Assembly: GCA_964016885.1 (NCBI GenBank)
Contig: OZ024750.1
Span: 3,348,001 to 3,412,000, forward strand
From: Eledone cirrhosa
Lineage: Eukaryota
Length of the DNA stretch: 64,000 nucleotides
Direction of reading: 5' to 3'
Within the stretch, counting starts at the first letter, position 1. Each line of letters starts with the position of its first letter. This document shows, piece by piece, positions 12,475 to 58,404 of this stretch. The position numbers were made by a program, and so were the translations under genes. A model generated the notes under the pieces. It did no database searches. It worked only from the letters and a program-made list of their open reading frames with translations, and was not told the DNA's origin.

Positions 12475-12642
12475 GAAAAGAGTCAGTACCCCGACTGCTG
12501 AGCTCCGGCCGTTCGACAGCTAGAAACGGCCGGAGATCAGCCGTCGGGGTCCTGACTCTTTTCCTATTAACCACTCTACTACCCCAAGTATCGAGTACTC
12601 TGGTACGTTTTGGTCCACCTGGTATCTTACCACACCTTCTTT
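12475..12642 (+). mobile_element. Fold-back element with the 3' half of a hammerhead (family D)
   Basis: Inverted repeat 12475-12563; GAAA-CGGC-loop-GCCG-TC-GGGGTC; tail shared with the copies at 22605, 43256 and 58267; ends in a TA run. Confidence 0.7.
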
Positions 12643-13889
12643 TATATATATATATTAATATATATATATTAATATATATTAATTATGTTACTTGACACAG
12701 AAGGCTAAATAAGAGAGAGAGAGAGAGAGAGAGAGAGAGAGAGAGAGAGAGAGAGAGAGAGAGAGAGAGGAGGGCATGTCTCCGTGTTTTGTTTTAGTTT
12801 TTGTTATTCTGCTTTATCTGTTTCCATTCTCTATTTCTGACGAACTTACCATTTACTTATGGATTGTTACGTCAATAAGGTTTCTTCTGGTTATCTTCCC
12901 TTAGATGTTTACTCTCCTGTTTGAAAGATAGAGTCGCGTGTATCTGGTCAAATCACAATCTAGTATACAATACATGCAGCGTTTGAAACCGGAGGTAGCA
13001 ACATGTGTTTATGTGTTGATGACATTAAACATAATATTTATATATATATATATATATATGTATGTATATATATATATATATATATATATATATATATTAG
13101 GAAAGGCTTGCTGAAATTCATATAATTACTATAAAGTAGTCGAATAAGTCGGGTAAATTACCGTTAGAAACGGAAAAAAAGGTGTTTCATAATAAAAGCA
13201 TGTATATATATATATATATATGTACGTGTGTATGGATGTGTATATGTATGTATATATGTGAGTGTGTATGTATGTGTGTAGTTCTGAAATATGTGATCAT
13301 ATATATTGCTATAAAGCTCTGTTGTTTGTATCATGTGATACAAAACCGGATATTGAGCCGTAATATTATTCGCATCAATAAACGATTTAATCTATTGGTT
13401 TTGTAACAATTACTGAAGCGAATCAATGATACTAACCATGCGAAGATAATAACTGCATAATGGAAAGCTTACTCAAGCTTTCATAGCTCGATACATCGAA
13501 GAGAAATACTATGGATGATTGGACATTTCAGAAGTGTTTTGAATTTATCTTCTCACAGGTAACTAGAAAAGTAAATGACGGAGTCGTCCTGACATAAGGC
13601 ATGTCTTGAGAATTTTACACCTGGCAAGCCCGGTGGAAAATGCCTTATTGAGGTGAAACACAACCGATTTCTTCCAGACAAATAAAGAATCGGCCCCTAT
13701 CGACCTAGGAGAAGGTCACTCTGATATAAAACCTGCAATTTCGTTTGTATCTAATGATGTAGACCAGTTCTACTATTGGGGCAAATGCATTCGATGTTGA
13801 GAGAGTGGGATTGGCCTCGTGCAAAGCCTTTCCTCACTTAATGAAGCTTCAAGCATCGCTTGATATGTGACAATATTTGTGATGCATTT

Positions 13890-14070
13890 GGATTGGCAGT
13901 TTCGGTAGAGGGTCGGACGTCATGCTTTGCAGCATAGAGTCCTTTACGTTCTGAGTTCAAATCCCGCCGAGGTTAACTTTGCCTTTCATCCTTACAGGGT
14001 CGATAAAATAAAGTACCAGTAATGTACTGGGGTAATTGCTGGCCTTGTGCCAAAAGTAGAAACAATTATT
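13890..14070 (+). mobile_element. SINE family M
   Basis: A-box, B-box, core and tail present. Confidence 0.88.
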
Positions 14071-14189
14071 TGTGATGCATGGCATTGCTGGCCATAGGCA
14101 AGTCCCTAGCAGGACTAAAAAGCCACGTCCGTGATGCTCATGTTTAAGTATCATGAGATGGCATTACTTGAAATCAAGTTTCAGCCATC

Positions 14190-14432
14190 ATGTATGTGTG
14201 TGTGTGTAGGTATGTGTGTGTGTGTGTGTGTGTAGGTATGTGTGTGTGTGTAGGTAGGTAGGTAGGTAGTGAGGTAGGTAGATAGGTATGGAGGTAGGTA
14301 GGTAGGTAGGTAGGTAGGTAGGTAGGTAGGTAGGTAGGTAGTGAGGTAGGTAGATAGGCATGGAGGTAGGTAGATAGGCATGGAGGTAGGTAGGTAGGTA
14401 GGTAGTGGGGTAGGTAGGTAGTGAGGTAGGTA
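14190..14432. repeat. (TG)n and (GTAG)n microsatellite
   Basis: Simple repeats. Confidence 0.97.
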
Positions 14433-16496
14433 TGGTCCCGTGACTTCTGGGGGAGTTGTAAGGGCGCCACATTTACATACAGCGTATCTATGACATTTTA
14501 TAGCAGATCTAACAACACATGAAACAACTTTCACTTGGGTTATGAGACTAGGTACACCACGTAATTCAGGCCACGAGAAAGTTATGGAAAAACCTTCGAT
14601 CGCGCCAATTAATTTGATAACGTATTTCTTGCGTTTAACATCGAATAATAAAATTTTGATTAGAAATTTGTGTAAAATATCGCGTTGAAAATGATTTTAA
14701 AAATAATTCGATATTATTCACATCTTTGCAAATCAATGAATCTAGCTTCTACTTTGAAATATCATTTATAGAGCAATTAAATGGTGGTTAGGCCAGTTTC
14801 ACTATTCATAATTAAGTTGTAGAATTAATGTGATACACACGAGAAAGACACGAGAATTCTGGTTAACTTCGATCATAAAAGAATGGGACTATCTCACTTT
14901 TTAATCATTTATATATTTATCTGTTCTGTAACCCACTAAAATATGTACGTTCTTGTATCGAGAATTAATGATAGTAAATTTGTAATTTTGTAGAAATGTC
15001 TTTGACAGTCTAATATCTCTTTATCTATGAAGATATTCTTCACGTCCTCATCTGTTGCAAGCGTCAACAAAGAACATTCAAGTGAACATAAAATGTTTGC
15101 TTTTAAGTCCTTTTAACTGAATTTTTGTTCGAAAGTCCACCATAGCCAGAGTATTCCAGAAAGTATTAACTCTATAGTGTGGCATGATGTGAAACTATTA
15201 AAATTTTGATTTTCCGAAGACTTTCTTAGAACAAAAATGGAATAATTTCATTACAACGAACTATTACATTTCTAAAAGTTGCCTGATTGTTTTGAGACTT
15301 GTTTAGAAAACTACATTTAGCAGGGTAAAATTCAATAAATTATCTTTCAGAAAAGTGCCAGTTCGATCTCTGGTTTATTGGGTTAATATTTAATTTTGCA
15401 TGAATTTTTCAAGAAATTTTGTTGTTTTTTGTTAACCAAATTTTTGTGCAAAAGAACTGCATAAACTTCTATAGAGACAATCTTTTTAGCTGTGATTTTT
15501 TTTTGTTTCTTCTTCCCAAAGGTGTTATTCAACAGAAAATTTGCAATAAACAATGATAGGAAAAACTTGAAAAAATGATATTTTCCCACACTGAGTGCAC
15601 TGTGCCCCGTATATCAATATGGCGCCCACACGACTCCTTCTGGAGTTACGGGTTCATACATACATCATAGTAAGTCACATATTTTGGGTAATACGTGTGG
15701 TCGATTTAATAGATCTTAGTATGGGAGTAATACTTATTGCATTGATCCTTAAAGGATGACTTTGCAATGTCGACAATGACATAATACTTGGTACGACACA
15801 AAACCAACGGAAACTATTAATGGCCGCTCGGAAGGGGGTTCATGAAGCCAAGCGAGGTTTATACATGTGTTCATGTCAAGCAAGTTACATGATGACAGAC
15901 GCTAAGATAATTGGAATGGCTTCTCCTCAACCTAATCTGCCATTCAGGAAAAGTAGCTATTATATATAGAACAGAACACTTCATAGTAACAACGAGGAAG
16001 AGAATTTCGGTTGAGGTACACTAACCCGATAAGTTTTTGTTTTTTTTATAGAAAAAATAAAAACGTTTTATTAATAAAAATAATGTTTTAATCATTAAAA
16101 AATCTATTTCAAATAACAACACTACAGGTATTTAAAAAGCGGAAAAGAAATGGAAAAGCAAGGGCTCTGGATTCACAGAAGCAGGGGGGGGGGGGCTCTA
16201 GGGTCACAGAAGAATGGGAGGGAGCGGGTGATGATCGAGTGTGATGGACTCTGGGTCTAGGTCGTATTGGAGATGAGCCCCACGGACAAGACCACAAAAG
16301 GATTTCCGCGGACACCTCATATGTAACATAGGCTGACCAAGATATTCCATGAAAGTATCTTGGTCAACCTCTGGACATTTCAACCGAATCCTCCTACATA
16401 CAAACATATGTACAACCCCATGTGAGTATTTGTGTACGTGTATGCTTATGCTGTGGATAATTAAATCGTATATATATATATATATATATATATATA

Positions 16497-56584: not shown

Positions 56585-56849
56585 CCCTTTAGCATTATAT
56601 TACTCTATATATACTATTGTATGTTCAAGGTAAAGACTTTACCTCACATAACATGTACATAACTTTATATTTACTATTGTATTTTAGTGGTAAAGGCTTT
56701 ACCTCACATAATATCGAATCTACAAGATTTTTATATTATTCATTTTTAGAACAATACCTTAACATGAGTATGAGTGGCTAGTTACGGCCAGTTTGAAGAG
56801 AAAGGTGAGAGAATTCTGGCCAGATACGGCTGGTTTAAATGCTACAGGG
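56585..56849 (-). mobile_element. piggyBac-type MITE with an internal duplication
   Basis: TTAA on both sides; CCCT termini. Confidence 0.85.
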
Positions 56850-58123
56850 TTAAGGGAAAAGTCATATGAGAGCTCTGGAGTTCAGGTCTGTTCAAAGGAC
56901 ATAGGAAAATATGTACACCTGGGTAATTGAGGCTGGACAATACACCTGGGTAATTGAAGCTGGGCAATACACCTGCTTTGATGAAACTTTAATCTCCACT
57001 ATATAGTTACACCTTTGTGCTTTTGTATGACCTCATTATTGTATATTTGTTTTGTAGTATTTCCAATGGAATGAAACTTTGTAAATGAGTAAATGATGAA
57101 ATAAAATTCCTATACTGGAATTCAGGCAACATTGAGATAGTAGAACTAAATTCCTAAACATTTTATATCACTTACTATTCAGTTGGTACGTTGAACTCGT
57201 GGAATTTAGGTCAATTGTCTTTATTCATTCTTTCAGAAAACCTTTCAATGATTATAACGTAAATATTTTGTTACATAAACAAGTGTGTTAATAATGATAT
57301 GGATAGATGCAAAATTACCAACTTAATGAAACTATGGCTCACTGTCAATTGTCCGTTTCTTTTTATACCATTCTAGAGAACCTTTTGTTAAAATGTTTTT
57401 GTAAGTTTAGGCTTTCAGTTGATTGTTAACCAGAGAATGTAAACTTAAATTGAAATATTTTTTAAAACGTATTTTTCAAACACGTGAATATACTCAGAAA
57501 TATGTGTGTGTATGTGTGTGTGTGTGTTTGTGTGTTTTTAAAGCATTTCATTCAATCTTTTAGAATATAATACACTGGCATTTAGAAAGAGCTATGATGT
57601 GATAGCATGATAACATCAGTTCATTTAACTCTTTCCATTGACAAATTACAGGTCAAAGTGACCAAGTATCGTTTGTCCTTTCAATATAATGGAATTAAAT
57701 ATGCTTCTATTTTAAAGAATTCATATTATAATTAAGGCGGCAAATTGGCAGAGTCATTAGACTGTCAGATAGAATGTTTCGACTCTGCCGTCTGAGTTCA
57801 AATCAAGGTCAACTTTGTCTTTCATTCATTAGGGGTCGAGAAAAAAGTACCAGTTTAGTACTGGGGTCGATTCTTCCTCTGTATCTCTTTCTCACTTCCT
57901 CTCTTTCTCTCTTTCCTTCTCTGGTATATATCTGTTGTATTCAGGCCTGGAGAGGATTGGGCTCTGCCAGGATTAAAAATGCCCTGGAAACACCATATAT
58001 CAATTATACTGCCCCTACGACTATCTCAGGAGTTATGGGGCCATGCAGGCATGTATATTATAATCACAGCGGAGAAGTTAAATTACAGTAAACTATTTGT
58101 CATCTCCCTGAAAAATACTCTTT

Positions 58124-58183
58124 AGAGGATTGGTCAAAATTTCTTGTAAGAAATTTCTTGTAAGAAATTTTGACCAATCCTCT
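58124..58183. repeat. Compound palindrome
   Basis: AGAGGATTGGTCAAAATTTCTT and its reverse complement flank a palindromic AAGAAATTTCTT. Confidence 0.9.
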
Positions 58184-58266
58184 TGACAACTACAATCTTC
58201 CCATATAAGGAAGTACCCTTTGAAAAGTTCGGTTATTTATTTACCAGGCTAAAAATTCTAATTTAA

Positions 58267-58404
58267 TCCAGAAATAGCCATCGAAACGGCTTGAGCTCTG
58301 CCATCCGGGTCATACATTTTCCTATTACCCACTCTACTACCCTAAGTATTGAGTACTCTGGTGCGTTATGGTCCACCTGGTTCCTTACCACAACTCCTTT
58401 GTTA
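58267..58404 (+). mobile_element. Family D element without a fold-back arm
   Basis: Starts TCCAGAAATAGCCATCGAAACGGCTTGAGCTCTGCC; same tail; ends in a TA run. Confidence 0.75.

What the first reader, a model, noticed from the sequence alone, without database searches (positions are those of the whole stretch)
12475..58404. Family D: half-hammerheads whose 5' catalytic box is replaced by an inverted copy of the 3' half
Seen: the copies share GAA-ACGGC-[loop with GAGCTC]-GCCGT-C-GGGGTC, i.e. the GAAA box, a 5-bp stem III, a canonical GUC triplet and a stem I strand. Two subfamilies differ in the loop (TTGAGCTCT vs CGGAG(C/A)TCA) but keep the stem. None has a CTGANGA box. Three are fold-backs centred just upstream of GAAA. 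The right arm at 43319 and the unfolded copy at 58267 start at the same TCCAGAAATAGCC. Inference: a long stem II hairpin stalls or self-primes cDNA synthesis and yields ribozyme-dead palindromes. The palindromic loop could mediate dimerisation, and such half-motifs could be cleaved in trans by full-length RNA.
Basis: partly seen in the sequence, partly recalled or inferred. Interest (0 to 1): 0.7.

Follow-up and report, generated by a model that had tools for sequence, protein, structure and literature searches.

The report
Truncated Penelope-type ends with variant hammerhead
These repeats are real, and one copy carries the supposedly missing ribozyme half in an already published variant spelling, so they are likely the ordinary broken tail-ends of a Penelope-type jumping gene, odd only in that most copies break off at the same spot inside the ribozyme.

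Summary
Five loci (eight arms) carry the 3' half of a type I hammerhead; three are fold-backs. The claim that no copy has a 5' box fails. The copy at 58267 continues upstream and carries TTGAAAA (58220-58226), the published U3-A8 covariant of CUGANGA, with stem I and a 9-bp stem II. Read-majority letters repair all four mismatches in its helices. Arms end at two fixed 3' sites, 58325 and about 58402, next to (TA)n: a tail-less inverted arm plus a tailed arm, the known Penelope-like element (PLE) insertion form. An intact-box family in the same window folds back the same way, so fold-back does not replace the box. No RT/endonuclease ORF could be linked, so PLE membership rests on architecture. 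Simple snap-back is disfavoured: in two of three fold-backs each arm holds sequence the other lacks. One oddity remains: 7 of 8 arms start within 19 nt at stem II, and read depth in one RAD run falls about 25-fold there. Dimerisation is plausible; trans-cleavage has no support. Verdict: new member of a known kind, interest 0.27.

The parts
58215..58310 (+). Complete type I hammerhead of Family D (decayed copy)
   Evidence: Only descriptor hit in the window; pair table; reads
58215..58219 (+). Stem I 5' strand, pairs 58306-58310 (5 bp with read-majority letters, 4 in this copy)
58220..58226 (+). 5' catalytic box TTGAAAA = U3 U4 G5 A6 N7 A8 A9; N7 (58224) varies among A, C and G in reads; C3 is a minority allele
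   Evidence: variant published in PMC4209133 and PMC3088659
58227..58282 (+). Stem II: closing G-C, small T-rich internal loop, 9 bp (58230-58238 with 58272-58280), 33-nt loop II
58283..58305 (+). GAAA box, 5-bp stem III with 9-nt loop holding the GAGCTC palindrome; predicted cleavage after 58305
58265..58283 (+). Zone where 7 of 8 arms begin (reference coordinates) and where read depth drops about 25-fold
58326..58402 (+). 77-nt optional 3' tail between the short end (58325) and the long end (about 58402)
   Evidence: loose ends table 7
58403..58435 (.). (TA)n flank, inferred target
58124..58183 (.). 60-nt palindrome (56 of 60 self-complementary, holds a 14-nt tandem duplication); likely the 5' end or inversion junction of the long copy (inferred)
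   Evidence: similar pLTR 5' palindromes in PMC3846280
43256..43315 (-). Fold-back 3, inverted tail-less arm (ref 58266-58325), abuts (TA)n
43319..43453 (+). Fold-back 3, tailed arm (ref 58267 to long end); 3 nt of filler at the junction
22605..22666 (-). Fold-back 2, inverted tail-less arm (ref 58265/6-58325), abuts (TA)n
22667..22791 (+). Fold-back 2, tailed arm (ref 58281 to long end)
12475..12522 (-). Fold-back 1, inverted tail-less arm, subfamily 2 (from ref 58275); outer end a few nt short and not on (TA)n
12523..12643 (+). Fold-back 1, tailed arm, subfamily 2 (ref 58283 to long end)
26220..26272 (-). Solo tail-less arm, subfamily 2, (TA)n on both sides, GAAA box damaged

Best explanation
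Family D is a high-copy set of 5'-truncated retroelement ends whose longest copy holds a complete type I hammerhead with the U3-A8 core, and it likely derives from a Penelope-like element whose enzyme would nick (TA)n on both strands and copy the RNA from two fixed start sites. Shown: the full motif at 58215-58310; two fixed 3' ends (58325, about 58402) next to (TA)n; head-to-head pairing of a tail-less arm with a tailed arm in 3 of 3 fold-backs; 5' ends clustered at stem II. Inferred: each nicked strand primes its own cDNA, one from the short site and one from the long site; reverse transcriptase usually drops off in or just past stem II; the two cDNA ends are joined with 0-1 nt of overlap or a few nt of filler, giving a palindrome that lacks the 5' box; about 3-4% of molecules in one run read through and keep it. 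The half copies are then dead by-products, and the ribozyme of the intact element is predicted to cleave after the GUC, as a monomer or through a dimer. My odds: about 0.85 for PLE-type remnant, about 0.55 for two primings plus stalling as the route.
For: Reads restore pairing at all 4 mismatched positions of the window copy (58219, 58280, 58303, 58306: 93-97% in X10, 93-96% in X1) and turn a G-U into G-C at 58233 (86%, 99%). N7 is the variable letter of the box. The U3-A8 core is known in Schistosoma PLEs, about 1,300 hits, with long helix II and short helix I, and is reported active in vitro. Loose ends into (TA)n at 58325 (3,009 reads in X10; 148 and 140 contigs in X1, X2) and at 58392/58399 (1,798 + 6,295 reads) show both ends outside this window; opposite-strand joints recur. 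An inverted truncated copy with a one-sided tail is the standard PLE form. The anole PLE protein cuts and extends both strands of AT-rich DNA from two start sites that define the tail. The control family at 24903-25224 has the same one-sided tail with intact boxes. In 2 of 3 fold-backs the tail-less arm reaches 8 and 16 nt further 5' while the other arm alone has the tail, and a solo tail-less arm exists. Clustering: P about 1e-4 under a constant-hazard null conditioned on reaching GAAA (assumes independent copies).
Against: No RT or GIY-YIG sequence was linked, and part of the frame I tested belongs to another repeat. The tail is 77 nt against the published 30-40 nt. Both arms of each fold-back share subfamily-specific letters, which random pairing of two RNAs would not give; it needs one source RNA or locus, or later homogenisation. 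Deletions at palindrome centres after insertion could mimic the asymmetry. Free folding of the decayed window copy does not give the hammerhead (-17.6 against -7.4 kcal/mol for the forced fold). The depth step comes mainly from one RAD run; X1 and X2 are one sample and contig depth is not copy number. The pile-up of joints exactly at 58267 is partly an artefact of this copy's private letter at 58266. No cleavage or expression was measured.
Confidence: 0.72

Rival explanations
1. Same element, but the fold-backs arise by self-priming: the cDNA (or an antisense template) snaps back at the stem II region and copies itself, as the first reader and Arkhipova et al. 2013 propose.
For: Arms in one locus share subfamily letters. 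The cDNA has a built-in 6-bp hairpin at ref 58276-58291 (-6.7 kcal/mol as DNA). Palindromes at inverted junctions are read as self-priming in PMC3846280.
Against: None of the 3 junctions sits on that hairpin. In 2 of 3 loci each arm has sequence absent from the other. The short end is fixed and also occurs solo (26220-26272). Junction overlap is 0-1 nt, or there is filler.
Confidence: 0.25
2. [quoted passage not shown]
For: Depth shows two plateaus with a step (480 against 12,007 reads), not a gradual slope. 3 of 8 arms start at ref 58265-58267. Read-majority AG lies at 58265-58266 and a TATA-like run at 58234-58243. In D. virilis Penelope an intron ends at the hammerhead's helix I. A stop-free frame runs from 58267 through the tail in the 43319 arm.
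Against: 4 of 8 arms start further 3' (58275-58283). Copies of a spliced RNA should continue into a common upstream exon, but loose ends before 58267 and 58275 are heterogeneous (agreement 0.39-0.41). The promoter and splice motifs are short and AT-rich and were not tested against chance. Three sequence subfamilies stop in the same zone, which a structural stall explains directly.
Confidence: 0.17
3. The half motifs are functional RNAs that dimerise through the GAGCTC loop and are cleaved in trans by the 5' half of full-length RNA.
For: GAGCTC is kept across two subfamilies that differ on both sides of it. The stem-loop III homodimer is favoured by 13.9 kcal/mol with an intact loop and by 3.8 and 7.6 with mutated loops. 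An isolated natural 5' half binds a half motif by -7.2 kcal/mol in a cofold.
Against: Fold-back transcripts would be locked in -65 to -103 kcal/mol hairpins. In a half motif the GAAA box folds into a competing 6-bp hairpin (-8.0). The cofold optimum (-22.0) is not the hammerhead fold (-14.0). The only solo half copy here has a damaged GAAA. Core letters decay freely: 2 of 8 arms keep the exact core. Loop conservation is explained by selection on the parent.
Confidence: 0.06
4. Family D is a non-LTR retrozyme (tandem 150-450 nt monomers with complete hammerheads, spreading through circular RNA).
For: Type I hammerhead in an animal-type genome; retrozymes are proposed to derive from PLE ends; one contig in X1 shows a 122-nt go-back joint.
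Against: No tandem array at any of 5 loci; monomer ends do not match the cleavage site; 7 of 8 arms lack half the ribozyme.
Confidence: 0.05

Closest known systems
Insertion units of endonuclease-positive Penelope-like elements (pLTR, adjacent inverted 5'-truncated copy, one-sided tail; PMC8557442, PMC3846280)
   Same: Head-to-head inverted truncated arm, tail on one arm only, hammerhead near the 3' end, AT-rich or (TA)n target, palindrome upstream of the longest copy.
   Different: Tail 77 nt rather than 30-40 nt; most copies stop inside the hammerhead; no ORF linked here.
U3-A8 hammerheads of Schistosoma mansoni Cercyon PLEs (PMC4209133)
   Same: Type I, U3-A8 covariant core, long helix II, 5-bp helix I, G10.1-C11.1, mostly single truncated motifs, pairs on opposite strands.
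   Different: Family D has a full 5-bp helix III with a 9-nt palindromic loop (not a minimal core) and a 33-nt loop II; the large helix III recalls the fungal and protist PLE variants in the same paper.
Poseidon of Anolis carolinensis (PAc), in vitro (PMC11167929)
   Same: Two fixed 3' ends defining a tail downstream of the hammerhead; AT-rich targets. The paper shows both strands cut and extended.
   Different: There the ORF and enzyme are known; clade and enzyme are unknown here.
Animal non-LTR retrozymes (PMC7229834; bioRxiv 10.64898/2026.07.22.740005)
   Same: Type I hammerhead; a U-U mismatch at the base of helix II is also described for an axolotl motif.
   Different: No tandem arrays; ends not at the cleavage site.

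Membership tests
EN+ Penelope-like element | ORF with PLE RT and GIY-YIG endonuclease | tested here: inconclusive
   Upstream frames gave no relevant hit; no genome held; collection scans found no true copy
EN+ Penelope-like element | Type I hammerhead near the 3' end (in the pLTR) | tested here: met
   58215-58310, 92 nt before the long end
EN+ Penelope-like element | Adjacent inverted 5'-truncated copy | tested here: met
   3 of 5 loci; opposite-strand joints in X1, X2, X10
EN+ Penelope-like element | Optional tail at one end only | tested here: met
   3 of 3 fold-backs; two fixed ends in reads; length 77 nt is above the published range
EN+ Penelope-like element | AT-rich or (TA)n target | tested here: met
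   7 of 8 arm 3' ends abut (TA)n
EN+ Penelope-like element | Partial tandem forming direct pLTRs | tested here: inconclusive
   None in the window; one go-back joint in one contig
EN+ Penelope-like element | Target-site duplication | not testable with these tools
   Not discernible inside (TA)n
Type I hammerhead ribozyme | Core boxes with a Watson-Crick 3-8 pair, GAAA, UH triplet | tested here: met
   U3-A8, GAAA 58283-58286, H17 = C58305; no Rfam model reached its cut-off
Type I hammerhead ribozyme | Three helices around the core | tested here: met
   5, 1+9 and 5 bp with read-majority letters; 4, 1+8 and 4 in the window copy
Type I hammerhead ribozyme | Self-cleavage | not testable with these tools
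   Needs an assay
Non-LTR retrozyme | Tandem monomers each with a complete hammerhead | tested here: not met
   0 of 5 loci; window only
Non-LTR retrozyme | Circular RNA expression | not testable with these tools
   No RNA run could be laid
Naiad PLE clade | Absence of a canonical hammerhead | tested here: not met
   A complete motif is present; Naiads share only the (TA)n bias

The most novel reading that the evidence does not exclude
The element disarms its own ribozyme: the mobilised RNA starts, or is spliced, inside loop II, so a roughly 135-nt ribozyme-less RNA is the real high-copy parasite of a Penelope-like enzyme. The repeated GCCGUC strand lets the RNA switch between the hammerhead and a hairpin that buries GAAA. 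Fold-backs made of a short and a long arm would then be a genomic record of priming on both target strands, making the unresolved PLE integration step testable on thousands of junctions.
Probability: 0.17. Interest if true: 0.6.

Novelty: new member of a known kind. Interest (0 to 1): 0.27.

Why it matters
Mostly ordinary: it adds one more PLE-type family and shows that searches for CUGANGA miss U3-A8 hammerheads. The useful part is mechanistic. How PLEs make inverted arms and tails is described as unresolved (PMC8557442, PMC11167929). A family with very many short, easily aligned junctions, two fixed 3' ends and a sharp 5' step could discriminate two primings from self-priming, and a stall from an RNA start.

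Tried and rejected
Rfam at gathering thresholds: 0 matches in the window. No own genome held, so the genome-wide search was replaced by one laying of 4 of 12 listed runs. No RNA holder was listed; this is no evidence on expression. Pattern scans: 0 hits; the 1 hit (L001) is a chance match in a GC-rich bacterial-type contig with no BLAST similarity to the window. Upstream frame 57921-58205 as a PLE ORF end: no Pfam match above cut-off, 0 of 5 candidates, and one hit (P0001) that is a repeat protein matched weakly ten times; 57910-57970 belongs to another repeat, so these blanks say little. Type II topology (box downstream): no box in the tail or in the flanks. A GUC triplet in loop II as a second cut site: copies include those letters, so rejected. 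An ATG at the 43314 arm: taken as a junction product, because reads show AG there. One search fetched an unrelated paper by a wrong id and was not used. Look-ups of earlier findings by place and sequence were blank.
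Full report
CONTEXT. The window is AT-rich (32% G+C), full of microsatellites and short repeats, with no Rfam match and no genome held. It looks like an animal genome; the SINEs resemble ones I recall from octopus (recalled, not tested).

OBSERVATION. Motif search, self-BLAST and alignment give five loci with eight arms. Three are fold-backs. Every right-hand arm (4 of 4) continues past stem I for about 90 nt and ends in (TA)n. 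The four minus-strand arms stop 77 nt earlier: three exactly at reference position 58325 next to (TA)n, one a few nt short of it.

THE MISSING HALF IS IN THE WINDOW. I laid 4 of the 12 listed runs on 58200-58402 (X1 and X2 are one sample, X5 another organism, X10 a RAD library). Reads and contigs cover 58200-58266, including contigs that span 58200-58302 in X1 and 58200-58310 in X5, so the copy at 58267 does not begin there. At 58220-58226 it reads TTGAAAA. Majority letters in the reads differ from this copy at 58219, 58233, 58280, 58303 and 58306. These repair all four mismatches and tighten one G-U pair, giving stem I of 5 bp, stem II of a closing G-C plus 9 bp, and stem III of 5 bp. The variable letter of the box is N7. 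A general descriptor finds this site alone in the window, against 0.13 hits per shuffle (descriptor written after the fact). U3-A8 in place of C3-G8 is published for Schistosoma PLEs (PMC4209133, parts 1-2 of 4 read) and is reported active in vitro (PMC3088659, one passage). A minority carries C at position 3 (100 of 328 reads in X10; 3% by depth in X1; one contig in X5). Whether these have G8 I could not see: 60 rows were hidden and a fifth A>G site in X5 and X10 is unlisted. A canonical CUGANGA subfamily is therefore possible but unverified. Against: the decayed copy does not fold freely into the hammerhead, and no activity was measured.

ARCHITECTURE. Reads confirm both 3' ends outside this window: loose (TA)n after 58325 (3,009 reads in X10) and after 58392/58399 (1,798 and 6,295), plus recurring opposite-strand joints (581 loose-end rows and 2 joints were not shown). 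An inverted 5'-truncated copy next to a direct one, with a tail on one side, is the standard PLE insertion (PMC8557442, passages; PMC3846280, passages). The anole PLE protein cuts AT-rich DNA on both strands and starts from two sites that define the tail (PMC11167929, parts 1-2 of 4). Internal control: 24903-25224 is a fold-back of another family with CTGATGA on both arms and a tail of about 90 nt on one arm only. Fold-back is therefore independent of loss of the box. The palindrome at 58124-58183 sits upstream of the long copy as 6720-6805 does for the hammerhead-like motif at 6642, and like the pLTR 5' palindromes of A. vaga. I could not link an ORF, so PLE membership rests on architecture alone.

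MECHANISM. In reference coordinates the seven truncated arms start at 58265, 58266, 58267, 58275, 58275, 58281 and 58283 (and junction reading). In loci 12475 and 22605 the tail-less arm reaches 8 and 16 nt further 5' than the tailed arm, so neither arm can be a simple copy of the other. Locus 43256 has 3 nt of filler. A solo tail-less arm exists at 26220-26272. I infer two primings, one per nicked strand and start site, then joining of the two cDNA ends. Against this, arms within a locus share subfamily letters, central deletions could fake the asymmetry, and PMC3846280 argues for self-priming.

WHAT REMAINS ODD. Seven of eight arms start within 19 nt (P about 1e-4 under a constant-hazard null, independence assumed). 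In X10, depth is 480 over 58228-58255 and 12,007 over 58284-58311, so about 4% of molecules keep the 5' box; X1 and X2 show a drop of about 10-fold between 58249-58255 and 58284-58290. Loose ends there are heterogeneous (agreement about 0.4), as expected for truncation into flanks, though a mixture of diverged subfamilies could contribute. RAD sampling is biased, and the exact pile-up at 58267 is partly due to this copy's private letter at 58266. A stall at stem II is the simplest reading; an RNA that starts or is spliced in loop II is the bolder one. The stem II 3' strand repeats the stem III 3' strand, so a 6-bp hairpin over GAAA competes with the hammerhead (-8.0 kcal/mol). I found no description of such a 5'-end cluster in the listings of seven searches or in the passages read; that is a weak negative, and no supplements were read.

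Dimerisation through the palindromic loop is the published PLE model and is favoured in cofolds of 3 arms. Trans-cleavage is not excluded for solo halves but has no support: fold-backs are locked hairpins and the cofold optimum is not the hammerhead. A retrozyme reading fails on the lack of tandem arrays (PMC7229834 passages; bioRxiv 10.64898/2026.07.22.740005 part 1 of 5).

VERDICT. A real repeat family, likely the truncated ends of a Penelope-like element with a known variant hammerhead. New member of a known kind; interest 0.27.

Noticed in passing
window 24903-25224 (left arm continues to about 24810): Fold-back of another hammerhead family with CTGATGA on both arms and a roughly 90-nt tail on one arm; the right arm has a 17-nt deletion in stem II. 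Used as control.
   Followed up: yes
window 16888-17230: Head-to-head junction of two different hammerhead-like families (minus-strand motif at 16991, plus-strand at 17091), both outer ends in (TA)n. Could be one event primed on two different RNAs, or two insertions; one case only.
   Followed up: partly
window 17091, 26027 (+) and 38638 (-): Three copies of a minimal hammerhead family with intact CTGATGA box and palindromic AACGTT, each ending in (TA)n; tail-only fragments near 24471-24536 and 25219-25300.
   Followed up: partly
window 6420-6805: Minus-strand hammerhead-like motif at 6642 with an 86-nt palindrome (82 of 86) about 80 nt upstream and (TA)n downstream; same layout as the long Family D copy.
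   Followed up: partly
window 58277-58290: The stem II 3' strand duplicates the stem III 3' strand, allowing an alternative hairpin that buries GAAA; possible conformational switch.
   Followed up: partly
window 43319-43453: Stop-free frame through the hammerhead 3' half and tail, giving a short hydrophobic peptide; PLE ORFs can start inside the hammerhead, but no ATG or homolog was shown.
   Followed up: no
window 20192-21160 (-): 322-codon stop-free frame made of a tandem repeat of roughly 55-60 residues; no Pfam match above cut-off.
   Followed up: partly
window 26150-26272: The solo Family D arm and a copy of the minimal-hammerhead family point into the same (TA)n tract from opposite sides.
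   Followed up: no
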